A stretch of 60,436 bases of DNA from an uncultured Bacilli bacterium (GTDB lineage: Bacteria; Bacillota_I; Bacilli_A; RF39; UBA660): the NCBI GenBank assembly GCA_910576985.1, contig CAJTLA010000001.1, positions 1 to 60,436 of the forward strand, read 5' to 3'. The first letter of the stretch is position 1, and each line of letters opens with the position of its first letter. The translations under genes and the position numbers were made by a program. Under the pieces are notes generated by a model. It had not been told where the DNA came from. It did not search any database and saw only the letters and a program-made list of their open reading frames with translations. Shown here one piece after another: positions 25,773 to 50,491 of this stretch.

Positions 25773-26576
25773 TCAGTTTTCATAACCTCTTTGTATTTCA
25801 ATAAACTTGTGTACTAATTCTGGATCATATAATGTTCCTTTGCCACCCTCTTCTTTTTTCTGTGTACATAAAAGCAGTTCTTTGAATGCTTCTTCTTTTT
25901 TTTCTGCATTGTGGTAAATTCTATTTGAAGTAATGGCATCATAGCTATCCGCTATTCCAATGATTTGGGCCCCAATACTTGGAGTGATTCCCATATAGTA
26001 ACCACTTTCATCTAGTCTTTCATGATGAGATTCGATCATTTCAATAATTTCCTCATTTAAAAATTGATCAACAATTTGACGAGCAAAAATACAATGTTTT
26101 TGTATCATTTCAAATTCTTCGTCTGTTAGTTTTCCAGGTTTCCCTAGAACTTCTTCTGGAATCAAATATTTTCCAATATCATGGAATAATGCTGCTATAT
26201 AAATTCTTTTGATGTGTTCTTTTGAAAGTTTTATATGTTCTGCTAATTCACGTGCATATTTTGCAACTCTAAGTAAATGACCTAATTTTTGTTCTTCTAT
26301 CATTTCTATTTTAATATTGAGTTCTAAATAAGAAGAAAATTCATCTAAATATGCTTGTTGTTCTTTGCTTTTTTCAAAGTCAAATTGGTCTACTTCTTCT
26401 AATGTAATCATTGGAATTTCTAGCATTTCATATAAATATAACAATTCTTTATCTAGCATTTTTTTATCTTTTACAATTAAAGGACAACATAAGTGATAAA
26501 TATTTTCTTCTATATTATGACATTCTATTTTTAATTGCTCTATTTCTTTTTGATCTAATTTGTAATAACCTACCAT
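25773..26576 (-). CDS. HD-GYP-type phosphodiesterase (variant GYP motif); last gene of the operon
   Basis: Contains AALFHDIGKYLIPEEVLGKPGKLTDEEFEMIQKH and HHERLDESGYYMG (canonical HHExxDGxGYP). The N-terminal ~100 aa is an unassigned domain. Confidence 0.8.
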   Translation of the reverse strand: MVGYYKLDQKEIEQLKIECHNIEENIYHLCCPLIVKDKKMLDKELLYLYEMLEIPMITLEEVDQFDFEKSKEQQAYLDEFSSYLELNIKIEMIEEQKLGHLLRVAKYARELAEHIKLSKEHIKRIYIAALFHDIGKYLIPEEVLGKPGKLTDEEFEMIQKHCIFARQIVDQFLNEEIIEMIESHHERLDESGYYMGITPSIGAQIIGIADSYDAITSNRIYHNAEKKEEAFKELLLCTQKKEEGGKGTLYDPELVHKFIEIQRGYEN

Positions 26577-26587
26577 AACGCCTCCAT

Positions 26588-27370
26588 CTAATTTTGTTTC
26601 ATTTTTTCATAATAATGATATGCTTTTCGAAGTCCTTCATAATGATAATATTTTTGAATTTTTTTAAAGTCTTGATCCATTTCTTTTTTTGTCTTGAAAT
26701 ATTCTTGTTCATCGGAATAAACTTCATAAATTGTATTTACTTTTTTTTGATATTTTTTTGCATATTCGATTTCATTTTCAATGTTCTCTTTTGTATATTT
26801 TATATTATAGTTCATCAGTGATGCTTCATCGCATCCTTCTTTTATTATATCTTCTAATAGGTTCTTGTCAATACTATCCAACCAGACTGGGAGCGCTAGA
26901 ACAACATAAAGATTTTTCTTTTTCGCATATTGATATGCTTCTTTTACTGAAGCCGCATAAAGTGGAAAGTCAAAATCTTCTTCATTATGTAAGTAAGGTT
27001 CTACATCAAAGACGATTCCATCTATTTTTTCTTCATTTCTCTGATTATAAGAGATTACTTTGTCAATTTCTTTTTTCATTTGGGTGGCTTTTCGATCTAG
27101 TCCCCAAGATGGGTCTCCACATAATTGATATACTTTTATTTTTTTTTCTTTCATTTTTTTTAAAAATGCAGAATCATTTTTACTTAAGTAGTCTGTGGTA
27201 AAGTCTTGATAAATTTCTTTGATATCATACTTTTTAATGATATCGAATAGTTCTTTATCTTCTAATGCATCCATACTCCAAGAATATAATATATTATTTT
27301 CTTGTCTTGAGGTTATAATTAGAAATAAACATACAATGATTAAAATTACACTCCATATTTTCTTTTTCAA
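26588..27370 (-). CDS. Secreted or membrane-anchored small TIM-barrel-like glycoside-hydrolase-like protein
   Basis: N-terminal signal/anchor. IDGIVFDVEPY resembles the GH18-type DGxDxDxE acid-catalyst strip with the middle Asp replaced. No secure family assignment. Confidence 0.45.
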   Translation of the reverse strand: MKKKIWSVILIIVCLFLIITSRQENNILYSWSMDALEDKELFDIIKKYDIKEIYQDFTTDYLSKNDSAFLKKMKEKKIKVYQLCGDPSWGLDRKATQMKKEIDKVISYNQRNEEKIDGIVFDVEPYLHNEEDFDFPLYAASVKEAYQYAKKKNLYVVLALPVWLDSIDKNLLEDIIKEGCDEASLMNYNIKYTKENIENEIEYAKKYQKKVNTIYEVYSDEQEYFKTKKEMDQDFKKIQKYYHYEGLRKAYHYYEKMKQN

Positions 27371-27374
27371 ATTA

Positions 27375-28763
27375 TCACTCCATTTTTGTTCTTGATATTT
27401 TTCCCCAATTAAGTTTATTTTTTCGTGTTGTAAAAAATGAGGTTAATCGGTACCAGTTTACTAGTTGCCTAAATCCAAAGTTTTCAATGATAGAGTAAAA
27501 TATCACTCTAATAAAGTCTTTTGTTGAAAAACGGTTGGTTGTATATACACGATTAAAAAATGTTGTTATTGTAAATATGGTACAAAATAATATATAAATG
27601 GCAAAATAAATCATCATGAATTTAAAGTTAATCAGTTCTAAAAAGTAAGAAATAAATATGAATATCAGTCCTATTGTTTCTGTTAATGGCGCAAATAATT
27701 CATAGATCCAATAGTATAAGAAAGAAACCGTTCCTAATAGTCCATATTTGGGATTTAAAAACATATTTTTATGGGACAATAAACTTTGGAATAATCCTCT
27801 ATGCCATCTTTTTCTTTGACGTTTGAAGTCTTTTAATTTACTTGGTGCTTGTGTATAACATATGGCTTCTGGTACATAACTAATTCGATATGGAATTTTA
27901 TTAGAAATAGCATAATCATGAAGTCGAATGACTAGTTCCATATCTTCTCCAATCGTGTTGGTTTTGTAGCCTCCTGCTTCTATTACAATTTGTTTTTTGA
28001 AAAGTCCGAAGGCTCCTGATACAATCATATTTCCATTGAATACATCGAATATGGTTCTACTCGCTAAAAAAGTACGATCATATTCTAAAGTCTGAATCAT
28101 TTCTAAATATTTTTTTGGCAAATGATAGTCGACGATTTTTCCATCTTTGAATGTAAGTCCATTTGATAGTTTGATCACACCTCCTGTTGCAATAATTGTA
28201 GAGTCTTCCATAATTGGTTTTACTAACTCTGTTAAAGAATTTTCTTGTAATACAGAATCTGCATCAATGGTTAGAAAGTATGGAGAATTTGCAGTATTAA
28301 TTCCAGCATTTAAGGCATCTGCTTTCCCTCCATTTTCTTTTGCAACAACAGTTAATTTTACTTTTAAATTTCCTTCATAATATTCCTTTACTTTTTTTGT
28401 GTGAATTTTTCTTCTTACTACTTTTGGGATTTTCTTTAAATCATAATGTTTTATTAATGTTTTTAAGGTTTGATCTGTCGATCCATCGTCAACAACAACA
28501 ATCTCATATAATTTATAGTCTAAATTTAAAAGAGAGTCTATCGTTGATATAATGGTCACTTCTTCATTATAGGCAGGAACCACTATTGATATGGGCAAAT
28601 AGAAGTCCCTTTCTATTTCGTTTTTATATTTTTTCTTTCGTTCTGTTATATAAAAACGCATTGCTCCTATAATGGCGGAACAAAATAAGAAACCTCCATA
28701 AAGAATAATATAATACAAGAAAAAATCATTTACAAATAATGTTAAGTTTTTTAAAAAGCTCAT
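27375..28763 (-). CDS. Processive family-2 glycosyltransferase (synthase type, BcsA/PgaC/IcaA-like)
   Basis: N-terminal TM segment. Motifs: VVPAYNEE, VVVDDGSTD, GGKADALNAG, TIDADS, IGEDMEL and QRKRWHRG (Q(Q/R)xRW). There are C-terminal TM helices. Confidence 0.85.
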   Translation of the reverse strand: MSFLKNLTLFVNDFFLYYIILYGGFLFCSAIIGAMRFYITERKKKYKNEIERDFYLPISIVVPAYNEEVTIISTIDSLLNLDYKLYEIVVVDDGSTDQTLKTLIKHYDLKKIPKVVRRKIHTKKVKEYYEGNLKVKLTVVAKENGGKADALNAGINTANSPYFLTIDADSVLQENSLTELVKPIMEDSTIIATGGVIKLSNGLTFKDGKIVDYHLPKKYLEMIQTLEYDRTFLASRTIFDVFNGNMIVSGAFGLFKKQIVIEAGGYKTNTIGEDMELVIRLHDYAISNKIPYRISYVPEAICYTQAPSKLKDFKRQRKRWHRGLFQSLLSHKNMFLNPKYGLLGTVSFLYYWIYELFAPLTETIGLIFIFISYFLELINFKFMMIYFAIYILFCTIFTITTFFNRVYTTNRFSTKDFIRVIFYSIIENFGFRQLVNWYRLTSFFTTRKNKLNWGKISRTKME

Positions 28764-28766
28764 TTT

Positions 28767-29801
28767 CTACACTTCCTGACTTATCAATGCTTGAACCATT
28801 TCTATGGCAAATGGGTCTGTTAATCCAGTAATTTTTTTTAAATCGGTCATTTTTTTTAAACTTTTTGCTGCATTATAACGAACGTAATAGTTATAATTGC
28901 TCAATGATTTTGTTAATACTTTAATGGTTTTTGGACTTGGATAATTTGCTAATGTTTGAATGATCACCACATCATATTCAAAATCTTTATAGTAATTATT
29001 TTCTAAACGCTCTAATAATATTATACTAGCTTTTTTATCTAGTACCTTAGAAAAGTAGCGAATTATTTCGATTTCTACTTCTTTTTCTATGTTTTTAGGA
29101 TTTTTTAAACGTTCGATTAGTTCTTTTTTCACATCATATTTACATTGTCTAAAAAATGTTAAAAATCCAATTTTAAATGGTTCTTTAAATTCATCAAATC
29201 GCTCATATAGTTTTTTACAGAGTTCTTCTTTGTCTCCTATAAAATTAGACAGTCCATCTGCTACTAATTTATATCCATAGTTTATGTTTTGTCTAGACAT
29301 TATTTGGTAAGCTTCTACTACTTTATCACTGTTTCCTGAGTGGTAAAATGCTTGAAGAGCATTTTCTTGGCAATAAAGTGATTTTGAAGTAACGCAATGA
29401 AATAAAAAGTGATCGATTTCTTTTTGTTCAATTTGAATAAACTGTAACATATAAGCATAATATGCTTTCTCTAAGTCATCTTTTTTTTGATAAATTGATG
29501 CAAGAGATAAAAGAATTGTTTGATATTCTTTTTTGGAAACGATATCTTGAATGGTTTCATTTTCGATTTCAAGGTTTTCTTCTAGCATGTTACAAAATAC
29601 ATATAAATATGATAACGATTTCAATTTTTGAATTATTTTTTTGTTATCCTTTTTTAAAATAAGTTTTATTAATTTTTCTTTTTTTCTTTGATCAATTTTT
29701 TGTTCTCTTTTTCTTTTATATAAGCTAACCATATCATAAATTAAAAGTAGAACAAAGAATAGTACAAAGAAACTTAAAATAAATGTGACATGTTCTATCA
29801 T
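28767..29801 (-). CDS. Membrane-anchored HEAT-repeat protein
   Basis: One N-terminal TM segment followed by alpha-helical repeats. The terminal repeat LTKSLSNYNYYVRYNAAKSLKKM fits the HEAT/PBS-lyase repeat signature. Confidence 0.55.
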   Translation of the reverse strand: MIEHVTFILSFFVLFFVLLLIYDMVSLYKRKREQKIDQRKKEKLIKLILKKDNKKIIQKLKSLSYLYVFCNMLEENLEIENETIQDIVSKKEYQTILLSLASIYQKKDDLEKAYYAYMLQFIQIEQKEIDHFLFHCVTSKSLYCQENALQAFYHSGNSDKVVEAYQIMSRQNINYGYKLVADGLSNFIGDKEELCKKLYERFDEFKEPFKIGFLTFFRQCKYDVKKELIERLKNPKNIEKEVEIEIIRYFSKVLDKKASIILLERLENNYYKDFEYDVVIIQTLANYPSPKTIKVLTKSLSNYNYYVRYNAAKSLKKMTDLKKITGLTDPFAIEMVQALISQEV

Positions 29802-29804
29802 GTT

Positions 29805-31901
29805 CTACTCCTCCTTTAATGCATTTTTTATGATATCATATGATTTTTTTAGTCGTTCATGGTAAGTGATTCTTTCTTTCCATCCTTTTAAAGAAAGTGT
29901 TCCAAATGGAATTGTATTTTCTTTGGTTCCAATACCAATATGCATTTGATTAATGTGGTAGTCTTCTACTCCATAATGTTCATAATAATCATCATGAATC
30001 ATCATTAGTGATGGATCGGAAAAGTTTAATATTCCCCAAGGAATTCTAATTTCAATGATATTTCCATTGGCATAAAAGTCACTTAATGAGTTAAATTTAC
30101 TATGATTTGGGTCGCTTATTCCATAGATTAAGTTTCCTGTTTTTACTACAGTCGCTTTATTTTCAATTTGGTAATCTCCATTTTGACGGTTTAAGTTTTG
30201 AAAGCTTGTAATGAGTTCAATATCTTCGAAGTTTGAACTGTCTTTTTTTGGTATATTCCCTTTTTCGAATGGTTCAATCCAATATAGTTGCTTTCCATAC
30301 ATGGCTCTTAATGGATTATATCTATCTTGCACTACGATTTTAGAATTTTTAGAGCCATTGATTTTTATAATAAAATCTGCTGCTCGATCAAATTTTAAAT
30401 TATCAAATTTTGAAGTTTTACTTCCTGTTTTTGGTGTAATATCAATTGGTAAATAAATGGTTTCTTCTTCAAACTCAAGATTTTCTTTTTCTATCAATAA
30501 ATATAAGTAAGTTGTATCATATTTACTTGATAGTTGGAATCCATTTTTATTTAATATTTGATCTTCTTTTTTCCACTCATCTTTTTTTCCATCTAAGATC
30601 ACAGGTGTTTCTTTTTTTCCATTTTCAAATGTCAAAATTCCAAAGCTATTGGTCGATGTTTGAATGTCATGCCAGTATTGGCTTCTGGTAACATCAATAC
30701 TATACATAGTATTCCAAACGTTTTTATCCCATTCATCTTGCCACTCATAAAGAATAAAGTTATTAATTCCTACTTCTTGTATTGTTTGAATTGCTTTTAC
30801 GATCATTTCTCCTTGTTCTTCTTCAGTATAAGAGGAATGCCCATAGTCTTCATTTTGGAAGTTGATGGTTTCTCCTCGAGCGGTTGAATATCCAAATTCA
30901 GAAATTACAATTGGCATTTTGTAATGGTTATAAAGACTTTTTAAGTATTCTTTATAAGAGTTTTGATAATGTTCACCGTTTAAACTATAATAATCTGGAT
31001 ATCCTGTATAGACTGCAAATGAGGCAAATAATCCTGATTTTACTTTATTGGTTGTTTCTAGCCTACTGATATCTACTGTTGTAAATTTGTTAAAAAAATC
31101 ACTAATTGCTTCATCATAGGTAAATGGATCTGTGGTTGGAGCGTTTCCAAATGATAGTAATCTTTGAGTTCCATATTTGTTACTTTCGTAGGCAAATATA
31201 GTATCACCAATTTCTGCTAGTACACGTTCAAATGGTGTCGCTTCTTTTGTCGTTTTTATGTATTTTCCATGATATTCATGATCATTTTTGTGGTTTCTAT
31301 TTGTGTATTCTACGGTTACATCATTCCATTCTGTTCCAATAATATATCCAATGGTCCATTCTGACACGTCAGCATCAAAACTTCCTGATGCATAAATCGC
31401 ATTATAGTTGATTATTTTTTTTCCATGTATGACATCTATCATTACTTTGGAATCATTTATCAAACTATTTTTTAAACTTTCATGGAAATAGTCTACACTA
31501 GAATTTTTTTCATAATCTCCTGCATCAATTCCTTGGATGAGGTATAATGGTTTTTTTTGCGTTTTATTATATTCTTTGAGTGCTTTATAAAATTCTGGTG
31601 ATTCTATTGTAAATACTCGAATGGTGTTGATATTCATATCACTAATTTGAGAAAACCATTTTAAATATGTTTGTTTGGTAATTGAAAATTCTTTGTCATC
31701 ATGTCCTGGAATGGCGGAACCAATATTAATGGCTTTTATGGTAAATGGTTGATTTTGTAATTTTAGCTCTTTTTGTTCTGTTTTAATAAATGTGGTTACA
31801 TTTTTTTTTGAAATGATACTTGTAGAGGTGTAGAAGGTAAGATAGTAGTATGCTAGTATCAATATGATAATTATAAAACAAGATATTAAATACTTCTTCA
31901 T
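29805..31901 (-). CDS. Membrane-anchored extracytoplasmic protein with a clan GH-A-like (beta/alpha)8 domain and a C-terminal beta-rich domain
   Basis: 698 aa with an N-terminal TM segment. NINTIRVF and PIVISEFGYS are typical strand-4/strand-7 signatures of clan GH-A enzymes (GH5/GH72-like). No precise family was recognised. Confidence 0.5.
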   Translation of the reverse strand: MKKYLISCFIIIILILAYYYLTFYTSTSIISKKNVTTFIKTEQKELKLQNQPFTIKAINIGSAIPGHDDKEFSITKQTYLKWFSQISDMNINTIRVFTIESPEFYKALKEYNKTQKKPLYLIQGIDAGDYEKNSSVDYFHESLKNSLINDSKVMIDVIHGKKIINYNAIYASGSFDADVSEWTIGYIIGTEWNDVTVEYTNRNHKNDHEYHGKYIKTTKEATPFERVLAEIGDTIFAYESNKYGTQRLLSFGNAPTTDPFTYDEAISDFFNKFTTVDISRLETTNKVKSGLFASFAVYTGYPDYYSLNGEHYQNSYKEYLKSLYNHYKMPIVISEFGYSTARGETINFQNEDYGHSSYTEEEQGEMIVKAIQTIQEVGINNFILYEWQDEWDKNVWNTMYSIDVTRSQYWHDIQTSTNSFGILTFENGKKETPVILDGKKDEWKKEDQILNKNGFQLSSKYDTTYLYLLIEKENLEFEEETIYLPIDITPKTGSKTSKFDNLKFDRAADFIIKINGSKNSKIVVQDRYNPLRAMYGKQLYWIEPFEKGNIPKKDSSNFEDIELITSFQNLNRQNGDYQIENKATVVKTGNLIYGISDPNHSKFNSLSDFYANGNIIEIRIPWGILNFSDPSLMMIHDDYYEHYGVEDYHINQMHIGIGTKENTIPFGTLSLKGWKERITYHERLKKSYDIIKNALKEE

Positions 31902-31903
31902 TT

Positions 31904-33316
31904 CTAATCCCCCTCATACATTTTATTGATTGATTTGTGCGAATATTGTTTTAATGTTTCGATGTTTTCATCCATCCATTTTCCACGTTTATTTAAATAT
32001 GTTTTTACTTGTTTTAATGCTTCCGCATGGCTTTGATAGTTTCTTTCGTATGGTTCGAGCATATTTTCTGTTTCTGTAAAACTTGATTCCCATACTTCAA
32101 AGTTTCGATCAATAGAGTTTCCTAAATATTTGATGGTTTTATCAATATAGTTTTGTATGTATTGATCGCTTAGATAATTTGTTCTTAGGTAACGATAACG
32201 ATCAATGATTTTGTTTACAAATCGTTCGTCTTTTAAAAGCATGTTATACCAAGCTTTGTCTTGAAATAGGAAACCTGTATGACTATAAATTTCTTCTACG
32301 TAATTATTCATGGCATTATTAAAGTCCCAAACTGGGCCCATGTGTATTTTTCCTCTGATGTCTTTAAATAAGTAAGTAGAATGGGTTCCTGCATCACTAT
32401 TTTTAAAGAATTCATTGAGAATCATATAATCGACAAAGCTGTCAACGTCAATATATTTTTCATATTCTTTATAGTCATAGGAATATAATGCTTTTTCAAA
32501 TTTTGAAAAGTCATTGTTGATATAATCTAATATTTCTTCCGTCAAGTCTATTTCTGATGGATAGATAATGTTAATTGCGTTTTGATTAATAATTTTTCCG
32601 CTATATTTGCTTAAATTATTTAACATGATGTTACTGTCATCATGTCTATCTAAACGGACTATATAGCTACTCATTCCATTTGACCAGTTTGGTTTATATC
32701 GAGTGACTTCTGTTAATGTTCTAGAAATACTTTCTACTAGTAAGTATAGTCCTTGGTATTCTTCATTTAGAAATACTTCACAATAACGTACTTCTGGCAC
32801 ATTATTCATAATTTTTCCAGAAATGTTATATGATAAGTAATTTCTAATCAATGATTTATCAAGGTATGGTCCATTTAAAATCCATTTGTTTTCGTTTTGC
32901 ATTCCTAATAGTTGTACATTTTTTCCTTGTTGATTTTTATCGATAAATTTTACTAAATATTGATGTTTGGGGAAGACACGAGATGAGTTTCCACGATATC
33001 GAATCTGAATATTACTTGATAAGTTTTTTTTATCAGTTAAACGGTTACTTGTTTTTCCGTTATAATAAAGGGAAAATTGTGCTTCAATTAAGTCACTTTC
33101 TCCGTTAATTCCGGGAATGGTTTTGTTATTTGTATTGATTTCTACAATTGGTAAATGGGTGCAAAATTCGTCATTTTTGTTACAAGTATTTTTTATTTTT
33201 TCATCAATATGTTGATCAATTCTTTTTTCATGGGATTCACTGATTCTTGCGTTTGCAAACAGGCATAATATAAAAACAATGGCTAATGATAAAAAACTAA
33301 TGAGTTTGAATTTCAT
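31904..33316 (-). CDS. CotH-family atypical protein kinase, exported
   Basis: N-terminal signal/anchor MKFKLISFLSLAIVFILCLFANA. The CotH core reads KHQYLVKF...NKWILNGPYLDKSLIRNYLSYNISGKIM...VFLNEEYQGLYLLVESI. Confidence 0.8.
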   Translation of the reverse strand: MKFKLISFLSLAIVFILCLFANARISESHEKRIDQHIDEKIKNTCNKNDEFCTHLPIVEINTNNKTIPGINGESDLIEAQFSLYYNGKTSNRLTDKKNLSSNIQIRYRGNSSRVFPKHQYLVKFIDKNQQGKNVQLLGMQNENKWILNGPYLDKSLIRNYLSYNISGKIMNNVPEVRYCEVFLNEEYQGLYLLVESISRTLTEVTRYKPNWSNGMSSYIVRLDRHDDSNIMLNNLSKYSGKIINQNAINIIYPSEIDLTEEILDYINNDFSKFEKALYSYDYKEYEKYIDVDSFVDYMILNEFFKNSDAGTHSTYLFKDIRGKIHMGPVWDFNNAMNNYVEEIYSHTGFLFQDKAWYNMLLKDERFVNKIIDRYRYLRTNYLSDQYIQNYIDKTIKYLGNSIDRNFEVWESSFTETENMLEPYERNYQSHAEALKQVKTYLNKRGKWMDENIETLKQYSHKSINKMYEGD

Positions 33317-33321
33317 TGTTT

Positions 33322-33999
33322 TTACCCATTAATTTCATCATTTTGACAAACAATATTTACATAGTCAATGTTTTTAATTTTATATAATGAATCACTAATT
33401 GATAGTTCATTTGTGTTTGCTTTGTTATATGATTTTCTTGATAATTCATAAATAAATTCTACTGTTTCTGGACTTGTATTTTTTACTCTCAAGTTGGCTT
33501 TTCCATGGAAATAAGTGAATATGGTTGATTCAATTTCGCCTTCATTTTTTCTACTTCCACGCACAACTAATAGCAAACGATCTGTATTTTTGATTCTTCC
33601 GAATAGTAATAGAAAGATAAAAATGACAATAGCTCCTACAATTGCAATTGTGAAGCAAGAGATTCCACAGCATAATCCCATTGAAATTGCCCAAAAAATA
33701 TAGATGGTATCTCTTGGATCTTTTATGGCAGTACGGAAGCGAACAATAGAAAGTGCTCCAATTGTTCCTAATGATAATGCGATGTTATTTTGAATTACGG
33801 TCATGACAATTGCAGTTACAACGGTTAACATGACAAGTGAAATATTAAATTTTGTGGAATAAATCGTTCCTGCATGGGTGTATAGGTATGATAAAAATAC
33901 AAGTAAACCTAAAATTAAGGCCATTACTACATTTAGTATGATTTGTTCAGTACTAAGTGTTCCTGTTGTTTCAAAAATATTTGTTATTAATTCATTCAT
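33322..33999 (-). CDS. DUF4956-domain membrane protein (usual partner of bacterial VTC-domain proteins)
   Basis: Contains LGTIGALSIVRFRTAIKDPRDTIYIFWAISMGLCCG and multiple TM segments. The start was set at 33999, after a GAGGAG RBS. Confidence 0.8.
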   Translation of the reverse strand: MNELITNIFETTGTLSTEQIILNVVMALILGLLVFLSYLYTHAGTIYSTKFNISLVMLTVVTAIVMTVIQNNIALSLGTIGALSIVRFRTAIKDPRDTIYIFWAISMGLCCGISCFTIAIVGAIVIFIFLLLFGRIKNTDRLLLVVRGSRKNEGEIESTIFTYFHGKANLRVKNTSPETVEFIYELSRKSYNKANTNELSISDSLYKIKNIDYVNIVCQNDEING

Positions 34000-34015
34000 T
34001 TTATTACTCCTCACT

Positions 34016-34720
34016 TTAATAAATATATTTAATGGTATTCATTCTACCTAAGCAATATTTGCTGATTGGTGTTTGAATTCGATCGATTGTACGAATTAAA
34101 TCTTTTACATAAGATAGTAGAAATCCATTATATTTTACTTCTAATACTACATGATTTTGATCAAAAACGGGATTTAACAATAAGTTTTTGTCAAATAAAT
34201 CAAATGATGTTTCTGTTGCTCTAATATCACTATCAAATGTAATTCTAGTTGAGTTTTCATTTACAATATAGGCTTTTCTACGATATTGATTGATGGTTTT
34301 TGGTACATAGTGATATTTACTCATAATGGTATATACTTCTAGTGCGAAGGGTTCTTCTTTTTCTAGTAGTACTTGATAGTCTTTTTTTATCAATCGCTCT
34401 GCTTCTTCTTTTGATACTTTTAATGATCTTTTCTGTTGATAGTTTCCTTGTTTTTGTTTCATTTCTAAGTAGGCAAAGTCATCTTCTGGATCATAAATAC
34501 GTAAACGTATTTTTCTTCTCGTTTCTAATCCATCTATTTTATTATAAAAGTCATCATCATATAGGGTATCAAAATATAAAGATCGAATCAGGTATCCATC
34601 CTTTTTGTTATGACTGTCTGGATGAAGTACTTTTCCAAAATAATGATCACTAGATAAATAGTTTCGATATGTGATCAAATATTTTTTTTCTTCCCTCAGG
34701 ACTTTTCGCAAATGCTTCAC
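34016..34720 (-). CDS. VTC-domain (polyphosphate-polymerase-like, triphosphate-tunnel) protein
   Basis: Contains REEKKYLITY...IRSLYFDTLYDDDFYNKIDGLETRRKIRLRIY...VVLEVKYNG. The ORF-track GTG start abuts the RBS, so the TTG at 34709-34711 is an alternative start. Confidence 0.8.
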   Translation of the reverse strand: MKHLRKVLREEKKYLITYRNYLSSDHYFGKVLHPDSHNKKDGYLIRSLYFDTLYDDDFYNKIDGLETRRKIRLRIYDPEDDFAYLEMKQKQGNYQQKRSLKVSKEEAERLIKKDYQVLLEKEEPFALEVYTIMSKYHYVPKTINQYRRKAYIVNENSTRITFDSDIRATETSFDLFDKNLLLNPVFDQNHVVLEVKYNGFLLSYVKDLIRTIDRIQTPISKYCLGRMNTIKYIY

Positions 34721-34765
34721 CTTCTTTCATTTTATATAGAAGGATATCATCAATGTTTCTCACAC

Positions 34766-34795
34766 AAAAATAGTATTGTTTCAAATACTATTGGG
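34766..34795 (-). promoter_or_regulatory. Terminator-like attenuator hairpin inside the operon leader
   Basis: The minus strand reads aatagtatt-tgaaaca-aatactatt (a perfect 9-bp stem) followed by TTTTGTGTG. It lies about 50 nt upstream of the VTC start. Confidence 0.5.
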
Positions 34796-34869
34796 TGCTT
34801 TTTATCACTTTTACACTCAAATTTTAAAGCATAATATATTTTGATTTCCTTCCACTAATACTAGCTTAT

Positions 34870-34897
34870 ATAATAGCACAAATTCTCATTTTGTCAA
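34870..34897 (-). promoter_or_regulatory. Promoter of the VTC...HD-GYP operon
   Basis: The minus strand reads TTGACA (34892-34897), a 16-nt spacer, then the extended -10 TGcTATTAT (hexamer at 34870-34875). Confidence 0.6.
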
Positions 34898-35032: not shown

Positions 35033-35941
35033 TTATTTTCCAAATCCATTTTTTTCAAAGAATTCTAATGTTACTTCTTTGGTCGCTGCGCCTTCTTGTG
35101 AGTCTACTACTTCTTTGTTTTCAATAATTAAAGTTAATGGAGTTCCCCAGCTTTCTTTGTCTTTAAAGTAAGATAATGAAGTAATTTTGCTACTGTCTTC
35201 GCTTTCTAAAGCTGTCATATCAATATAATAAATTGAAATGTTTTTTTCTTGTGCGATTTCATTGATGGTTGGTTTGAATGCTGTACAAGCACCACAACCT
35301 GTCTGTCCTAATACAATAATTGATTTTTCTCCACTTTCATAAATTTCTTCATATTGACTATAGTTGATAAATGAAATGTTTGGATATTGACTTTCATCTG
35401 AATCATCAGTAGTTTCTTCTTTGCTCGCATTACTACTAGATATATATGATTCTTCACTTCCAATAATTTCATGTTCTTGTAGTTCATCAAATAAGCTAGA
35501 TTCGGTAATGTATCCTGGAATTTCATCTATTTTTTTCCCATTTTCTAAGAATGCTACATAAGGAGTTCCAAAGTTATCAATGTCTACCCCAACTTTTTCT
35601 AATAGTTCTGTTAGTTCTTCTGTATCCATGATAGCTGCATCTACGTAATAATAAGTAAAATCATAAGCTTCACTTAAGTATTTCATCTGTGGAGTAAATT
35701 CTGAACATACACTACAGCTAGAACTTCCGATATATAGTACTTTTTTCCCTTCTCCATTAAAAGCTTCTTTATAATCTGTTGAATATTGTCCATCATATTC
35801 AGCAACATTGTTGTTACCGCTTTCATTTTCTGTTGGCTTCAGTGTTCTACTTTCTGTTTTGATTACACCTATCACAATTAATAAAAATAATAAAACGCCA
35901 ATCACAGTTACTATGATTATTGCTCTTTTCTTTTCATTCAT
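35033..35941 (-). CDS. Membrane-anchored protein with two thioredoxin-fold domains
   Basis: N-terminal TM segment. The two CxxC motifs are SSSCSVCSEF and QTGCGACTAF, each followed by a WGTP/FGTP cis-Pro loop. Confidence 0.7.
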   Translation of the reverse strand: MNEKKRAIIIVTVIGVLLFLLIVIGVIKTESRTLKPTENESGNNNVAEYDGQYSTDYKEAFNGEGKKVLYIGSSSCSVCSEFTPQMKYLSEAYDFTYYYVDAAIMDTEELTELLEKVGVDIDNFGTPYVAFLENGKKIDEIPGYITESSLFDELQEHEIIGSEESYISSSNASKEETTDDSDESQYPNISFINYSQYEEIYESGEKSIIVLGQTGCGACTAFKPTINEIAQEKNISIYYIDMTALESEDSSKITSLSYFKDKESWGTPLTLIIENKEVVDSQEGAATKEVTLEFFEKNGFGK

Positions 35942-36034: not shown

Positions 36035-36748
36035 TTATTTTGCATCATCTGTTATTTTCATTATTTTTCCATTTTTGATTTCTAATAAAATTGGTAATTT
36101 CATGTCATCTGTTAATGTTACTGTTTCATCGAATTTTTGTTTTTCTTCTTTTGTAAATACTGCAGGATTTAATAGTTTTATGTTTGTATTTTTGTTTAAT
36201 AAAGTTGTTACCTTTGGATCTCCTATTCTTCCAATTAATACCAATGCGTTTTCTTTTTCTTCTAGTAGTTTAAAATAAGATTCACTTGTGAGTCGTTCTA
36301 TTTTTGGGTAAGCATTTTTAAATGATTGATTGGTAATTCCATTTTTCTTCAAATAATTAAATAGTTCTAAGTCATCCATATAGCCAATCTGTTGATCTTT
36401 TATATTATTTCCTTCTGTAATGATGAGTCTTGGTGTTGAAAATGAAGTTTTTCTAATATGCAATTTTTCTAATATTTTTTCTAATTCTTTTTTGGTTAAC
36501 CAATCTACATTAATATCTTGATATTGAAAGTTATAATTTTTGCTAGCTTCTTGTAATATTGGCTTGAATAAATTACAAAAACCACATGTTGGTCTTTCTA
36601 AGAAAATAATATTTGTTTGTTTTTCTTCAAAGATGTTTTGATATATTTTTTGGAATTGGTAATGATGATATATATTTTTGATTGTAAGTCCAATCATGCC
36701 ACCAATAATACATATCACAGCACTTAATAATAATGTTTTTTTGTTCAT
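36035..36748 (-). CDS. Membrane-anchored thioredoxin-fold protein, paralogue of the downstream gene
   Basis: N-terminal TM segment. The first domain has RPTCGFCNLF and STPRL. The second, Trx-like, half lacks CxxC. The start was set at 36748 (MNKKTLLL), after a purine-rich RBS. Confidence 0.65.
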   Translation of the reverse strand: MNKKTLLLSAVICIIGGMIGLTIKNIYHHYQFQKIYQNIFEEKQTNIIFLERPTCGFCNLFKPILQEASKNYNFQYQDINVDWLTKKELEKILEKLHIRKTSFSTPRLIITEGNNIKDQQIGYMDDLELFNYLKKNGITNQSFKNAYPKIERLTSESYFKLLEEKENALVLIGRIGDPKVTTLLNKNTNIKLLNPAVFTKEEKQKFDETVTLTDDMKLPILLEIKNGKIMKITDDAK

Positions 36749-36870
36749 ACTTTCCCTACTTCCTTTTTTCATTGTAGTACGACTTATTTTTCTTGTCAAC
36801 TGTTTCAAAAGTAATTGTAGTTGTATTATGATTTTGTTATAATGGTTATGATAGAAAGGAAGCGTGTTTT

Positions 36871-48445: not shown

Positions 48446-50491
48446 CTAATTATTGAGTTCTTCTTTATTGTTTCTCATATCTAATGTAGCTTCATTTACA
48501 GCATCATCAATTGTTTTAATTGCATCATTGATCATACTATATCCACTTGCTGCTCCAAAACCATGTGATAATTCTCTTAATTCCTTGTTCAATTTACGAT
48601 TATAAGCTACTACTTGTTTTTCATCATATCCAACTAAATAGATTAAAAACTCATTTCCATTGGTTCTAATAATATCGCTGTTTTGAATTTGACCACGAAT
48701 TAAAATATTTGCAGCTTCTTTTATTACGTTATCCCCTTCTTGATGTCCATAATTATCATTAATATAAGCAACATTGTTTAAATCTATGATAATAATTGCT
48801 TGTGGATATATTTCAGAACTATCCCATTTTTCAATATTATCATTCAAATAAGCTCTATTTTTAAGTGAGGTCAAAGAATCAATATATCGTAGTTTGTCTT
48901 CTTTTGTAATTGTTTTACTTTTACTCTTATTTTTCGCTACTTTTATGTATCCGACTAATGCGACAATGACAAGTAATATACTTCCTACTAAAAGTATCCA
49001 TTGCATTTTTAGTGGTTCTGTTTTTGTCATTTTAGATAGTTCATATAAGCTGTTATTTAATACAGATTTTTCATTTTCAAATGACAAATAGAAACTAAAT
49101 AAGTCAATAAATAATTTGTTGTCTTTTATGTCTCTAATCATAAAGGAATAGTCTTCTACTAAATTTTCATTATAATCTATTTTATAATTTTTCAATTCTG
49201 AACGATTATAATATTTATAGTTCTCATAATCAAGTGCGATTATACTATTTTTATTGATTTTTTTTAATAATTTTTCCATGTTGTCATATTCTTGTACTTT
49301 GACATTGTTTGCTTTTAAATAAAAGCCAATCATACTATTTTTTATGACTGATACATTTTTCCCTTCTAATGAAGCTATAGAGTTCACGATGTTTTTTTCA
49401 GTATTATAAGATAAAATTACCAATTGTTCATTATATGGTGATGTTGTGTTTTTGACATCAAGGTTATATTTTGTTTTTTCATAGTTTTCCAACATAATAT
49501 CTATTTTGTTTTCATTAAATGCTTTTACCATTTCTGATATATTACGATATTCTTGAAATGAAATTTCTACATCAGATAAATCTGAAAAATTCTTAAGGAA
49601 CAAACTGTTATATCCTTTTAATCTTGATCCAATCATAATGTCGTATGGTGCATTTTCAACAAATCCATATACATATCGTTTACTTTTGAATTTTGTTTTT
49701 TCTTTATCTCCAATATTTTTGAAATCAAAGTATGAACTTGCTAGAAAGTGTTGATATGTTTTTTGATAATCATTTGAATACCATTTTTGATAATATTTTT
49801 TTAAGATTGTATTTAATCGTTCCGTTTTTCCTAATCTTAATACATAGTTCATTTGTAATTCTGAAATATTGTAAGCAATGTTGAAATCATTTTCAATAAT
49901 CTCTTTTAAATACATTGTTTTTGGAATGGCAATTGCATTGATACCATCTGTATTTTGGTTTGTTAAGGCTGTGAGTAAATCACTTTCTTTTTCATAAGCT
50001 TTTAATGTAATGGTGCTTCCTCTTAAATAGGTGTTGATAGTTTCTAAATCATTTTTTAAAACACCAAGTGTTAGATCTTTGATATCTTCTAAGCGATTGT
50101 ATTTTATGCTTTCTTTTGTAATAATGGCATAGTTATCTTGATATAATAATAATTCATTTTTTCCGATGTGTTTTGTAGATGTAATAGAATATTCTGTCTT
50201 TGGTTTTTCGTCTTTAGAAATGGAAGTTTTTATAAACTCTAATCCTGTATCTTTTTCTAAGGCGTTTAAGAATTCAAAGGCAATTCCTTTTCCATTATAA
50301 TTTACAATTGGGATTTCATTAATAATAGATAAGTCAATTCTTTTGTTTTTGTTATTTTCAATCCATTTATTTTCTACAATTGTAAGTGTTGTTTCTTTAT
50401 CTGGTTTATTTAAAACATAGTATCCAATTCCTACACCAATTGAGCATAATAATATTAAGATACTAATAATCATTATTTTTTTCTTTTTCAT
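48446..50491 (-). CDS. Membrane sensor protein with a large extracytoplasmic solute-binding-like region and a degenerate GGDEF domain
   Basis: Layout: TM segment, about 480 aa outside, TM segment, then a GGDEF fold (DSLTSLKNRAYL, IDLNNVAYINDNYGHQEGDNVI). The signature reads RTNGNEF instead of GG(D/E)EF. The start was set at 50491, after GGAGGTGA. Confidence 0.8.
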   Translation of the reverse strand: MKKKKIMIISILILLCSIGVGIGYYVLNKPDKETTLTIVENKWIENNKNKRIDLSIINEIPIVNYNGKGIAFEFLNALEKDTGLEFIKTSISKDEKPKTEYSITSTKHIGKNELLLYQDNYAIITKESIKYNRLEDIKDLTLGVLKNDLETINTYLRGSTITLKAYEKESDLLTALTNQNTDGINAIAIPKTMYLKEIIENDFNIAYNISELQMNYVLRLGKTERLNTILKKYYQKWYSNDYQKTYQHFLASSYFDFKNIGDKEKTKFKSKRYVYGFVENAPYDIMIGSRLKGYNSLFLKNFSDLSDVEISFQEYRNISEMVKAFNENKIDIMLENYEKTKYNLDVKNTTSPYNEQLVILSYNTEKNIVNSIASLEGKNVSVIKNSMIGFYLKANNVKVQEYDNMEKLLKKINKNSIIALDYENYKYYNRSELKNYKIDYNENLVEDYSFMIRDIKDNKLFIDLFSFYLSFENEKSVLNNSLYELSKMTKTEPLKMQWILLVGSILLVIVALVGYIKVAKNKSKSKTITKEDKLRYIDSLTSLKNRAYLNDNIEKWDSSEIYPQAIIIIDLNNVAYINDNYGHQEGDNVIKEAANILIRGQIQNSDIIRTNGNEFLIYLVGYDEKQVVAYNRKLNKELRELSHGFGAASGYSMINDAIKTIDDAVNEATLDMRNNKEELNN

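What the first reader, a model, noticed from the sequence alone, without database searches (positions are those of the whole stretch)
31904..34720. VTC-DUF4956-CotH triad with a split predicted topology
The sequence predicts different locations for the three proteins.
- The VTC protein has no signal peptide or TM segment, so it should be cytoplasmic.
- DUF4956 is polytopic.
- CotH begins with a hydrophobic signal/anchor (MKFKLISFLSLAIVFILCLFANA), so its kinase domain should be outside the membrane.

An extracytoplasmic ATP-dependent kinase next to a cytoplasmic polyphosphate-polymerase-like enzyme and a dedicated membrane protein is an unusual combination. One testable idea is that DUF4956 conducts the VTC product (polyP or another phosphoanhydride) across the membrane, as the yeast VTC complex does. 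That product would then supply a phosphodonor or substrate to the exported CotH. This is inference only.
Basis: partly seen in the sequence, partly recalled or inferred. Interest (0 to 1): 0.6.

Follow-up and report, generated by a model that had tools for sequence, protein, structure and literature searches.

The report
VTC–DUF4956–CotH cassette in polysaccharide operon
Three tightly packed genes (a cytoplasmic yeast-type polyphosphate-polymerase-like enzyme, a small MgtC-like membrane protein and an exported CotH kinase) head an eight-gene exopolysaccharide operon; the set is real, widespread and already described beside Pel loci, and the idea that it carries phosphate chemistry across the membrane remains untested.

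Summary
Window 34720..31904 (minus strand) encodes three proteins:
- VTC (PF09359, E 1e-43), with no hydrophobic segment.
- DUF4956, with five predicted membrane helices and an ACT-like domain.
- CotH (PF08757, E 1e-62), with an N-terminal signal peptide.

They are the first three genes of an eight-gene operon. The rest are a membrane-anchored GH-A glycoside hydrolase, a HEAT protein, a GT2 synthase, a 260-aa protein and an HD-GYP enzyme.

Catalytic residues are intact in VTC (including the Lys that separates active Vtc4 from inactive Vtc2/3) and in CotH (the D228 and D251 equivalents).

VTC and DUF4956 form a near-obligate pair: 49 of 52 VTC genes in 200 related genomes, and 10 of 10 loci in Spirochaetota. 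CotH is a frequent but optional third partner. The topology split is conserved: 63 of 66 linked CotHs have an N-terminal hydrophobic segment, against 0 of 70 VTCs.

The triad is not new. It is published as an accessory set of Gram-positive pel loci, and this scan has noted it in at least 673 other genomes. What is new here:
- It sits in a non-pel GT2 operon.
- It occurs twice in a 1.4-Mb genome that lacks PPK1 and PPK2.

PolyP export feeding CotH remains inference. It is weakened by the published lack of a ΔVTC phenotype and by DUF4956–CotH pairs that lack VTC.

The parts
34016..34720 (-). VTC-domain protein (234 aa). It is a Vtc4-type triphosphate-tunnel (TTM) polyphosphate-polymerase-like enzyme, predicted to be cytoplasmic.
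   Evidence: PF09359 E 1.3e-43 over 9-226. A profile of 19 homologues hits the yeast Vtc4 TTM domain 3g3q at E 8e-20. The catalytic and tunnel residues are invariant. There is no hydrophobic segment.
33322..34014 (-). DUF4956 membrane protein. It has five predicted TM helices, an invariant R92-F-R94 motif at the cytoplasmic end of helix 3, and a C-terminal ACT-like domain. The likely true start is the ATG at 33999 (225 aa).
   Evidence: PF16316 E 4.9e-12; the MgtC hit (17.9 bits) is below cut-off. Alignment with invariant R92 and R94. AF2 model with pLDDT 83. By Foldseek the C-domain matches ACT domains and the MgtC C-domains 7qa5 and 2lqj at E ~4e-3. Ribosome-binding site and ATG. Stored as 225 aa.
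31904..33316 (-). Exported CotH-family kinase-like protein (470 aa): signal peptide at 1-23, kinase domain at about 105-448.
   Evidence: PF08757 E 1.3e-62. B. cereus CotH 5jd9 at E 8.8e-6. D308 and D331 align to the catalytic Asp pair (B. subtilis D228 and D251) and are conserved in 97% and 99% of 76 CotHs. N-terminal hydrophobic segment with an ANA|R site.
29805..31901 (-). Membrane-anchored clan GH-A glycoside hydrolase or transglycosylase-like protein (698 aa): TIM barrel plus C-terminal beta-sandwich.
   Evidence: No Pfam hit. The profile hits the sequence of PDB 9fz9 at 6e-4. AF2 model with pLDDT 86.6. Foldseek hits: GH157 9g4n at 5e-15, GH2 glucuronidases, GH72 Gas2/Gel4 and PslG. Conserved directly after CotH in 32 of 80 related loci.
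28767..29801 (-). HEAT-repeat protein with one N-terminal TM helix (344 aa).
   Evidence: PF13646 E 2.7e-8. Conserved between the GH-A protein and the GT2 synthase in about 30 loci.
27375..28763 (-). Processive GT2 polysaccharide synthase (462 aa, polytopic).
   Evidence: PF00535, PF13641 and PF13632. The best NCBIfam hit is PgaC_IcaA at 9e-42, far below the equivalog cut-off. A GT2 synthase lies in 49 of the related loci that hold DUF4956.
26588..27370 (-). 260-aa protein with an N-terminal TM or signal segment; no family assigned.
   Evidence: No Pfam or NCBIfam hit. Found in only 3 of 80 related loci.
25773..26576 (-). HD-GYP-type phosphodiesterase (267 aa), the last gene of the operon.
   Evidence: PF13487 E 7e-25 and PF01966 E 6e-20. 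The genome's single GGDEF match lies at window 48455-48886.
34721..34897 (-). Leader region upstream of VTC, with an AT-rich hairpin followed by TTTTGTGTG.
   Evidence: Sequence read. No Rfam family at E <= 1 on this strand. Function not tested.

Best explanation
The triad is an accessory cassette of a synthase-dependent exopolysaccharide (EPS) operon, and it spans the membrane.

Shown:
- A cytoplasmic VTC enzyme carries the full Vtc4 catalytic residue set.
- It is translationally close to, and nearly always paired with, DUF4956.
- DUF4956 is an MgtC-like protein with five TM helices, an invariant Arg-Phe-Arg motif at the inner membrane face and a cytoplasmic ACT-like domain.
- CotH, with an intact kinase active site, is exported to the same side as the GH-A enzyme and the nascent polymer.

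Inferred, and the most likely mechanism:
- VTC uses ATP to build a phosphoanhydride product (polyP) at the inner face.
- An oligomer of DUF4956 passes that product, or its phosphoryl groups, outwards, by analogy with the yeast VTC complex.
- The exported CotH then modifies the EPS, or matrix or wall proteins, where ATP is lacking.

DUF4956 appears to be the hub. VTC and CotH are exchangeable partners.
For: - Domain calls and operon packing.
- VTC catalytic residues: K200, R264, R266, K281, Y359 and R361 aligned by HMMER. E426 and S457-K458 assigned by motif, with Lys rather than the I/L of inactive Vtc2/3.
- CotH D228 and D251 equivalents conserved.
- VTC-DUF4956 adjacency: 49/52 in the Bacilli-class sample, 68/80 in Clostridia-rich loci, 10/10 in Spirochaetota.
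- V-D distance correlation of 0.89, with a partial correlation of 0.82 given the synthase. CotH tracks the GT2 synthase at 0.85.
- All conserved third partners are extracytoplasmic: CotH with an N-terminal hydrophobic segment in 63/66, and Cthe_2159 proteins (PF14262), mostly with lipoprotein-type signals, in 7 of 12 CotH-less loci.
- The CotH linkage recurs in at least 5 separate CotH lineages.
- The six-gene order V-D-C-GH-HEAT-GT2 is conserved in 24-31 loci.
- The genome has two triads but no PPK1 or PPK2.
- In one Spirochaete locus a TolC-family OEP (9e-31) lies beside CotH-DUF4956. Another locus has a weak HlyD-like gene between DUF4956 and VTC.
- Deleting DUF4956 or CotH alters Pel level and aggregation in S. 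intermedius (PMC12345266).
Against: - No bacterial VTC protein has been assayed. No pore has been shown for DUF4956, whose nearest relatives (MgtC/YhiD) are regulators, not channels.
- No VTC-DUF4956 fusion appears among the 150 best family representatives.
- I know of no kinase with the CotH fold that uses polyP.
- The S. intermedius ΔVTC mutant had no reported aggregation change, and ΔDUF4956 and ΔCotH moved Pel level in opposite directions.
- Only 17 of 52 VTC genes in the class sample have CotH within 6 kb. 15 VTC-positive genomes lack CotH, and 10 CotH-positive genomes lack VTC.
- In Spirochaetota, 14 genomes have DUF4956 without VTC, some as DUF4956-CotH pairs.
- Mirror-tree correlations are inflated by shared operon history.
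- No multimer prediction could be run.
Confidence: 0.35

Rival explanations
1. This is a cytoplasmic regulatory module. VTC, tethered to the membrane by DUF4956, makes or hydrolyses a phosphoanhydride inside the cell. Like MgtC, DUF4956 senses or adjusts phosphate or energy status and tunes the output of the EPS synthase. CotH acts outside independently, using ATP released by lysis or acting before export.
For: - DUF4956 has the MgtC architecture: a weak PF02308 hit, an ACT-like C-domain matching MgtC 7qa5 and 2lqj, and JGI naming of relatives as YhiD-like.
- ΔDUF4956 raises Pel while ΔCotH lowers it, which fits regulation better than one linear pathway.
- The pair often sits beside an OmpR-type two-component system.
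- With no PPK1 or PPK2, VTC may simply be the cell's polyP synthase.
Against: - It does not explain why every conserved third partner of the pair is extracytoplasmic.
- It does not explain why the pair is re-associated with at least 5 CotH lineages.
- It does not explain the TolC-family gene beside the module in a diderm.
- The MgtC similarity is below Pfam's cut-off.
Confidence: 0.3
2. PolyP itself is the exported product and forms a polyanionic component of the matrix. CotH (or Cthe_2159 in other loci) binds, anchors or trims it rather than using it as a phosphoryl donor.
For: - The evidence for the export step is the same as in the best explanation.
- The alternative third partner, Cthe_2159, belongs to a family that Pfam names as carbohydrate-binding, with no kinase features.
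- CotH proteins of the second locus type carry lamin-tail and Fn3-associated binding domains.
Against: The CotH catalytic Asp pair and other kinase-core residues are conserved at 97-99% in linked CotHs. That argues for catalysis rather than binding only. The export step has the same gaps as in the best explanation.
Confidence: 0.15
3. DUF4956 and CotH are the functional pair, with the membrane protein activating, anchoring or supplying the exported kinase with some other donor. VTC is a dispensable TTM accessory, for example a tripolyphosphatase or a local ATP or Pi sensor.
For: - DUF4956-CotH pairs without VTC occur in Spirochaetota (L151, L157, L158, L167).
- In S. intermedius only ΔDUF4956 and ΔCotH have phenotypes.
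Against: - In the Bacilli-class sample VTC and DUF4956 co-occur in 43 genomes, with only 3 exceptions, and most pairs lack CotH.
- V-D co-evolution exceeds D-C co-evolution (0.89 against 0.73).
- VTC keeps the polymerase-specific Lys.
Confidence: 0.1
4. CotH here is a non-catalytic surface or adhesin protein, like the Mucorales CotH invasins, and its link to VTC-DUF4956 is only co-regulation.
For: CotH family members act as surface ligands in Mucorales (PMC9973265, title and abstract seen).
Against: The active-site residues are conserved. The linkage recurs across lineages and phyla.
Confidence: 0.03

Closest known systems
cotH / polyphosphate-polymerase (VTC) / DUF4956 accessory genes of Gram-positive pel loci (S. 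intermedius SIR_1594, SIR_1593, SIR_1592; Whitfield et al. 10.1101/768473; PMC12345266)
   Same: The three families are the same, they are contiguous, and the predicted split is the same (secreted CotH, cytoplasmic VTC, MgtC-like TM protein with an ACT domain). A glycoside hydrolase lies next to them and they are linked to an EPS machine. I found one such pel locus in the same class (L021: DUF2194, PelF, PelG, then CotH-VTC-DUF4956-DUF4874/4832).
   Different: - No PelG was found anywhere in this 95%-complete genome.
- The EPS machine is a GT2 synthase with a HEAT protein.
- The hydrolase is a 698-aa GH-A protein without DUF4832.
- The gene order is VTC-DUF4956-CotH at the head of the operon.
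- The operon ends with an HD-GYP enzyme.
- The published statement that the triad is not found outside pel loci is contradicted here.
Clostridium perfringens NELoc-2 (Lepp et al. 2010, as described in PMC11677781)
   Same: By the published gene list it holds two VTC or polyphosphate-polymerase-domain proteins, a CotH kinase, a HEAT-repeat or PBS-lyase protein and a glycosyltransferase. This is the same family set as the window's operon.
   Different: NELoc-2 also has a sigma/anti-sigma pair, a recombinase and a polysaccharide deacetylase. No sequence comparison was made here, because the locus was not in any collection I could query.
Yeast VTC complex (Vtc4/Vtc3 or Vtc2/Vtc1; PDB 3g3q, 7ytj, 8i6v)
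   Same: The TTM tunnel domain is homologous (profile E 8e-20) and carries the same catalytic residues, including the Vtc4-specific Lys. The soluble polymerase is coupled to membrane protein(s). In yeast, synthesis is coupled to translocation.
   Different: There is no SPX domain. The membrane partner is a separate DUF4956 (MgtC-like, five helices plus an ACT domain), not the three-helix DUF202 domains of Vtc1/3/4. No activity or translocation has been shown in any bacterium.
Bacillus subtilis / B. cereus CotH spore-coat kinase (PDB 5jd9)
   Same: The Pfam family is the same and the catalytic Asp pair (D228, D251) is conserved.
   Different: Bacillus CotH has no signal peptide and acts in the mother-cell cytoplasm, where ATP is present, on CotB and CotG. 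This protein is exported and lies in an EPS operon. On the tree it is remote from the Bacillus protein.
MgtC / SapB / YhiD family
   Same: The architecture is similar: a hydrophobic N-terminal domain of about five helices plus a C-terminal ACT-like domain. There are weak sequence and fold matches.
   Different: The match is below the Pfam cut-off (17.9 against 31.4 bits). DUF4956 has its own invariant GALSIVRFR motif and an obligate VTC neighbour. MgtC has no known transport activity.

Membership tests
VTC / Vtc4-type TTM polyphosphate polymerase domain (PF09359) | Full-length match to the family model above the curated cut-off | tested here: met
   149.7 bits against a cut-off of 23, residues 9-226 on model positions 2-231 of 235. 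The profile hits Vtc4 3g3q at 8e-20.
VTC / Vtc4-type TTM polyphosphate polymerase domain (PF09359) | Basic tunnel residues that bind the triphosphate (Vtc4 K200, R264, R266, K281, R361) and Y359 | tested here: met
   HMMER alignment gives window K13, R72, R74, K88, R148 and Y146. The five basic residues are invariant and Y146 nearly so (at least 90%) in 19 sequences. The residue list comes from 10.1101/2023.01.27.525886.
VTC / Vtc4-type TTM polyphosphate polymerase domain (PF09359) | Metal-binding Glu (E426), and S457-K458 with Lys rather than the I/L of inactive Vtc2/3 | tested here: inconclusive
   Invariant LEVK (E194, K196) and SK (S220, K221) motifs lie at the expected places. HMMER aligned the EVK strand only to Vtc2 and Vtc3, and weakly. 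The Vtc4 C-terminal part did not align because of an insertion. No structural superposition was available.
VTC / Vtc4-type TTM polyphosphate polymerase domain (PF09359) | PolyP synthesis from ATP | not testable with these tools
   This needs an enzyme assay.
Eukaryotic VTC complex | SPX sensor domain and DUF202-type TM domains forming the channel | tested here: not met
   The 234-aa protein is a bare VTC domain. Its neighbour is DUF4956, not DUF202.
CotH kinase family (PF08757) | Family model match and similarity to the solved CotH | tested here: met
   212.6 bits against a cut-off of 23.8. 5jd9 at E 8.8e-6 over 76-453.
CotH kinase family (PF08757) | Catalytic Asp (B. subtilis D228) and metal-binding Asp (D251) | tested here: met
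   Window D308 and D331 align to the NFD and WD aspartates of B. cereus CotH, 23 residues apart as in B. subtilis. They are conserved in 97% and 99% of 76 sequences.
CotH kinase family (PF08757) | Spore-coat context (cotG/cotB partners, cytoplasmic assembly) | tested here: not met
   The protein has a signal peptide and lies in an EPS operon.
DUF4956 (PF16316) | Family model match | tested here: met
   46.3 bits against a cut-off of 30.6. The family profile finds 9662 representative clusters, nearly all about 225 aa long.
MgtC family (PF02308) | Family model match above the cut-off | tested here: not met
   17.9 bits against a cut-off of 31.4. Only the C-domain fold resembles the MgtC C-domain (E ~4e-3, TM about 0.55).
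Gram-positive pel accessory module (cotH + PPP + DUF4956 + DUF4832) | cotH, VTC and DUF4956 contiguous | tested here: met
Gram-positive pel accessory module (cotH + PPP + DUF4956 + DUF4832) | Contiguous with pelDEADAFG | tested here: not met
   No PelG (PF16933) in the genome, which is 95% complete. The neighbours are a GT2 synthase and a HEAT protein.
Gram-positive pel accessory module (cotH + PPP + DUF4956 + DUF4832) | DUF4874/DUF4832 glycoside hydrolase | tested here: not met
   The adjacent hydrolase has no Pfam hit and models as a GH-A barrel closest to GH157, GH2 and GH72.
C. perfringens NELoc-2-like locus | Sequence similarity and synteny with NELoc-2 | not tested
   Only the published gene list was compared.

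The most novel reading that the evidence does not exclude
Bacteria have a counterpart of the yeast VTC machine. A Vtc4-like polymerase docks on an oligomer of the MgtC-like DUF4956 protein and threads polyP through the cytoplasmic membrane. Exported CotH kinases use that polyP as a phosphoryl donor to phosphorylate exopolysaccharide or surface proteins where there is no ATP. In this PPK-less 1.4-Mb gut bacterium the two cassettes would be the only polyP synthases, and both would serve the cell surface. I put the export step alone at about 0.3 and the whole chain at about 0.12.
Probability: 0.12. Interest if true: 0.85.

Novelty: new member of a known kind. Interest (0 to 1): 0.5.

Why it matters
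- How an exported kinase is supplied with a phosphoryl donor outside the bacterial cytoplasm is an open problem. So is the function of the very large bacterial VTC and DUF4956 families (9662 representative clusters at 50% identity).
- This locus gives a compact test case with two cassettes, no PPK1 or PPK2, and a defined EPS operon.
- The comparative data sharpen what to test. DUF4956 is the hub, VTC is its near-obligate cytoplasmic partner, and the third partner is always extracytoplasmic.
- The data correct a published statement that the triad is confined to pel loci.
- Even if the polyP-donor idea fails, the cassette affects matrix production in a streptococcus, and relatives of it sit in a C. 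perfringens disease-associated locus.

Tried and rejected
- Direct phmmer of VTC and of DUF4956 against PDB sequences found nothing useful. A profile was needed.
- A profile of the C-terminal third of VTC still did not align to Vtc4 E426 or K458. That mapping therefore rests on motifs.
A subfamily alignment worked, so the 80 loci are biased towards close, CotH-linked relatives.
- I looked for natural VTC-DUF4956 fusions among the 150 best representatives. The two long proteins (335 and 396 aa) have no VTC domain.
- The two-component systems beside some pairs could not be assigned to PhoR/PhoB or any other equivalog.
- The NAGPA phosphodiester glycosidase beside the second cassette is not conserved in related loci, so I gave it little weight.
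- No riboswitch was found in the leader.
- A sample of the archaeal phylum of L097 had VTC in only 2 of 121 genomes, which was uninformative.
- The HlyD/TolC link reported by other agents was only weakly reproduced in Spirochaetota: one clear OEP and one sub-threshold HlyD hit in 20 loci.
- AlphaFold-Multimer was not available, and fused sequences are not accepted.
- I rejected the 'unusual or novel combination' reading because of the published pel papers.
- I rejected 'CotH is cytoplasmic' because of the signal peptide and its conservation.


Full report
**What is there.**
On the minus strand, eight ORFs run head to tail from 34720 to 25773 with gaps of only 1-17 nt:
- VTC (PF09359, E 1.3e-43)
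- DUF4956 (PF16316, E 4.9e-12, plus a sub-threshold MgtC hit)
- CotH (PF08757, E 1.3e-62)
- a 698-aa protein with no Pfam hit
- a HEAT-repeat protein
- a GT2 processive synthase (best NCBIfam hit PgaC/IcaA, far below cut-off)
- a 260-aa protein with no hit
- an HD-GYP phosphodiesterase

The finding's coordinates cover exactly the first three. The listed GTG start of DUF4956 (34014) is probably wrong. A GAGGAG site is followed six bases later by an in-frame ATG at 33999. The public protein collection stores this protein as 225 aa, which is also the modal length of the family.

**Topology.**
- VTC has no hydrophobic window.
- CotH begins with a classical n-h-c signal peptide ending ANA|R.
- The 698-aa, HEAT and 260-aa proteins each have one N-terminal hydrophobic segment.
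- An AlphaFold2 model of DUF4956 (21-sequence alignment, mean pLDDT 83) has an N-terminal amphipathic helix and five long helices (22-46, 54-74, 78-96, 100-117, 121-139). A beta-alpha-beta-beta-alpha-beta domain follows at 146-223.
- Foldseek matches that last domain to ACT domains and to the C-terminal domains of MgtC from P. aeruginosa and M. tuberculosis. The matches are weak (E ~4e-3, TM ~0.55).
- With five helices and the positive-inside rule, the basic loop R92-F-R94-x3-K98-x2-R101 and the ACT-like domain face the cytoplasm.
- No dedicated signal-peptide or topology program was available, so this part is sequence-based inference.
- The split is conserved. Among the related loci, 63 of 66 linked CotHs have an N-terminal hydrophobic segment. 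Of the other three, one has a milder signal-like segment, one ORF lacks an N-terminal leader and one runs off the locus end. None of 70 VTCs has one, and DUF4956 has a median of four segments by the crude hydropathy count.

**Are the enzymes intact?**
A profile of 19 VTC proteins hits the yeast Vtc4 tunnel domain (3g3q, E 8e-20). Using full-length Vtc4 numbering (8i6v), HMMER aligns the window residues as follows:

| Window | Vtc4 |
|---|---|
| R9 | R196 |
| K13 | K200 |
| R72 | R264 |
| R74 | R266 |
| K88 | K281 |
| K97 | K294 |
| Y146 | Y359 |
| R148 | R361 |
| R159 | R373 |

- The cryo-EM preprint 10.1101/2023.01.27.525886 lists K200, R264, R266, K281, R361, K458, S457, Y359 and E426 as the triphosphate and Mn ligands. 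It states that K458 is I or L in the inactive Vtc2 and Vtc3.
- The remaining three residues fall beyond a Vtc4 insertion that HMMER did not bridge.
- The bacterial alignment nonetheless has invariant LEVK (E194, K196) and SK (S220, K221) motifs at the corresponding strands. So the polymerase-specific lysine appears to be present.
- For CotH, the pairwise alignment to B. cereus CotH (5jd9) and a 76-sequence alignment place window D308 and D331 on the NFD and WD aspartates. These are 23 residues apart, like B. subtilis D228 and D251, whose substitution kills the kinase (PMC7821199).
- D308 and D331 are conserved in 97% and 99% of sequences, along with N306, K117 and E195.

**Is the association more than chance?**
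- The genome (1.38 Mb, 102 contigs, 95% complete) has two cassettes. The second, on contig C41, reads: CotH (967 aa, with three lamin-tail domains and Fn3-associated domains), then VTC, DUF4956 and a NAGPA phosphodiester glycosidase.
- In the tool's 14 control genomes, VTC and DUF4956 ring in exactly the same three: B. thetaiotaomicron, C. glutamicum and M. acetivorans. CotH rings in those three plus B. subtilis.
- In 200 genomes of the same class, VTC occurs in 45, DUF4956 in 44 and both in 43.
- In that sample, 49 of 52 VTC matches have DUF4956 immediately downstream on the same strand. One of the three exceptions is at a contig end.
- Only 17 of 52 have CotH within 6 kb. 15 VTC-positive genomes have no CotH, and 10 CotH-positive genomes have no VTC.
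- In CotH-less pairs, the adjacent gene in 7 of 12 sampled loci is a Cthe_2159 protein (PF14262), in most cases with a lipoprotein-type signal. An OmpR-type two-component system often lies beside the pair; it could not be assigned to a named system.
- In a 200-genome sample of Spirochaetota, all 10 VTC loci have DUF4956 beside them.
- In the same sample, 14 genomes have DUF4956 without VTC, and several of these are DUF4956-CotH pairs.
- The hierarchy is therefore: DUF4956 is the hub, VTC is its near-obligate cytoplasmic partner where present, and CotH is a frequent extracytoplasmic partner.

**Context.**
- The 80 closest DUF4956 loci in the species-genome collection come mostly from Clostridia, with the best hits from uncultured 'Tenericutes' or Bacilli gut MAGs.
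- Of these, 68 have VTC-DUF4956 adjacent, 56 have VTC-DUF4956-CotH and 4 have CotH-VTC-DUF4956.
- 24 have the exact window order VTC-DUF4956-CotH-(700-800 aa)-HEAT-GT2, or 31 allowing an ORF-calling gap.
- Two other recurrent types also end in a larger GT2 synthase.
- The 698-aa protein models confidently (pLDDT 86.6) as a TIM barrel plus beta-sandwich. Its nearest solved structures are GH157 endo-beta-1,3-glucanase (5e-15), GH2 glucuronidases, GH72 Gas2/Gel4 transglycosylases and PslG. It is therefore a typical EPS-processing enzyme.
- The triad thus belongs to a synthase-dependent EPS operon.
- The HD-GYP gene, together with a single GGDEF protein elsewhere in the window (48455-48886), suggests c-di-GMP control.
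- No PelG was found in the genome.
- A genuine Gram-positive pel locus followed by CotH-VTC-DUF4956-DUF4874/DUF4832 does exist in the same class (L021).

**Co-evolution.**
- On a tree of 62 CotH domains, the window protein sits in a 100/98-supported clade of 30 CotHs that are all linked to VTC-DUF4956.
- Linkage needs at least 5-6 changes on the tree and is clustered (0 of 500 shuffles).
- This fits either several independent recruitments or an old link with losses.
- The sampling is biased, because the linked rows came from a search with DUF4956.

Pairwise-distance correlations over 41 loci:

| Pair | r |
|---|---|
| VTC-DUF4956 | 0.89 |
| VTC-DUF4956, partial given GT2 | 0.82 |
| CotH-GT2 | 0.85 |
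| VTC-CotH | 0.76 |
| DUF4956-CotH | 0.73 |
| VTC-GT2 and DUF4956-GT2 | 0.60 |

- These figures are inflated by shared history.
- The ranking says that VTC and DUF4956 evolve as one unit, while CotH follows the synthase. That is expected if CotH acts on the synthase's product.

**What is known.**
- Whitfield et al. (10.1101/768473) listed cotH, a polyphosphate polymerase, DUF4956 and DUF4832 as accessory genes of pel operons in streptococci, clostridia and bifidobacteria.
- The S. intermedius study (preprint 10.1101/2024.04.20.589940; mBio PMC12345266) predicted a secreted CotH, a cytoplasmic VTC and an MgtC-like membrane protein with an ACT domain.
- That study showed that ΔSIR_1592 (DUF4956) and ΔSIR_1594 (CotH) halve aggregation in sputum medium and change Pel level in opposite directions. 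ΔSIR_1593 (VTC) had no reported effect.
- It also stated that the three genes were not found together outside pel loci. The preprint suggested that the polyP may stay in the cytoplasm.
- C. perfringens NELoc-2 is described with VTC proteins, CotH, HEAT and a glycosyltransferase.
- In the eight literature searches I ran, I found no paper that proposes polyP export through DUF4956.
- This scan's own notes hold 747 findings of the triad in at least 673 genomes. Other agents reached the same export idea and reported HlyD/TolC partners in diderms. One later check priced the bold reading at 5 in 100.
- I treated those notes as leads. My own test in Spirochaetota found one clear TolC-family gene (OEP, 9e-31) next to CotH-DUF4956. 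It also found one sub-threshold HlyD-like gene between DUF4956 and VTC, among 20 loci.

**Mechanism.**

Shown:
- The gene set, its conservation and the topology split.
- Intact catalytic residues in VTC and CotH.
- The EPS context.
- The absence of PPK1 and PPK2, with one Ppx/GppA homologue present.

Inferred:
- VTC polymerises phosphate from ATP at the membrane.
- DUF4956 oligomers, with the invariant RFR motif at the inner face, pass the product outwards.
- CotH uses it on the polymer or on matrix proteins.

I put the whole cassette-as-trans-membrane-phosphoryl-system reading at 0.35, the export step alone at about 0.3, and the complete chain with polyP as CotH's donor at about 0.12. The main rival (0.3) is an MgtC-style regulatory role for VTC-DUF4956 inside the cell, with CotH acting independently. 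The ΔVTC result, the VTC-less DUF4956-CotH pairs and the many CotH-less pairs all argue that the three proteins are not one obligatory linear pathway.

**Verdict.**
- The locus is a new member, in a non-pel GT2 context, of a published accessory gene set.
- Tools not available were look-up of sequencing runs (closed), multimer prediction and signal-peptide predictors.

Noticed in passing
own genome contig C41 (locus L025: 7418..1320, minus strand): There is a second cassette in the same 1.38-Mb genome. It reads: CotH of 967 aa (three lamin-tail domains, Fn3_assoc, CHB_HEX_C_1), then VTC, DUF4956 and a 617-aa NAGPA phosphodiester glycosidase. The NAGPA neighbour is not conserved in related loci.
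   Followed up: partly
loci L008, L009, L010, L012-L015, L098, L104, L105: VTC-DUF4956 pairs without CotH are usually followed, or preceded, by a Cthe_2159 protein (PF14262), in most cases with a lipoprotein-type signal. They often sit beside an OmpR-type response regulator and histidine kinase that could not be assigned to a named system.
   Followed up: partly
whole genome G000: No PPK1 (PF02503) or PPK2 (PF03976) match was found in a 95%-complete genome. One Ppx/GppA match lies on contig C6. The two VTC proteins would be the only recognisable polyP synthases.
   Followed up: yes
window 33997-34014: The DUF4956 start is probably the ATG at 33999 (GAGGAG six bases upstream), not the GTG at 34014. 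This gives 225 aa, as stored in the public collection.
   Followed up: yes
window 34760-34830 (minus strand): The AT-rich hairpin AATAGTATT-gaaac-AATACTATT, followed by TTTTGTGTG, lies about 50 nt before the VTC start. No Rfam family matches the leader.
   Followed up: partly
window 48455-48886 (minus strand, 686-aa frame): This is the only GGDEF-domain match in the genome. Together with the operon's HD-GYP gene it suggests a minimal c-di-GMP circuit that may control the EPS operon.
   Followed up: no
window 35033-35941 and 36035-36808 (minus strand): Two membrane-anchored proteins with thioredoxin-like domains lie directly upstream of the operon. The first has two such domains.
   Followed up: no
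Spirochaetota loci L151, L157, L158, L167; L152, L155, L160, L169: In this diderm phylum DUF4956 occurs without VTC in 14 of 23 positive genomes. Sometimes it is paired with CotH only; in L157 a TolC-family gene is also present. In four loci it lies behind a conserved 559-aa protein with no Pfam family and a 989-aa TPR protein.
   Followed up: partly
41 related loci: CotH sequence divergence tracks the GT2 synthase (r = 0.85) more closely than it tracks VTC or DUF4956. VTC and DUF4956 track each other (r = 0.89).
   Followed up: partly
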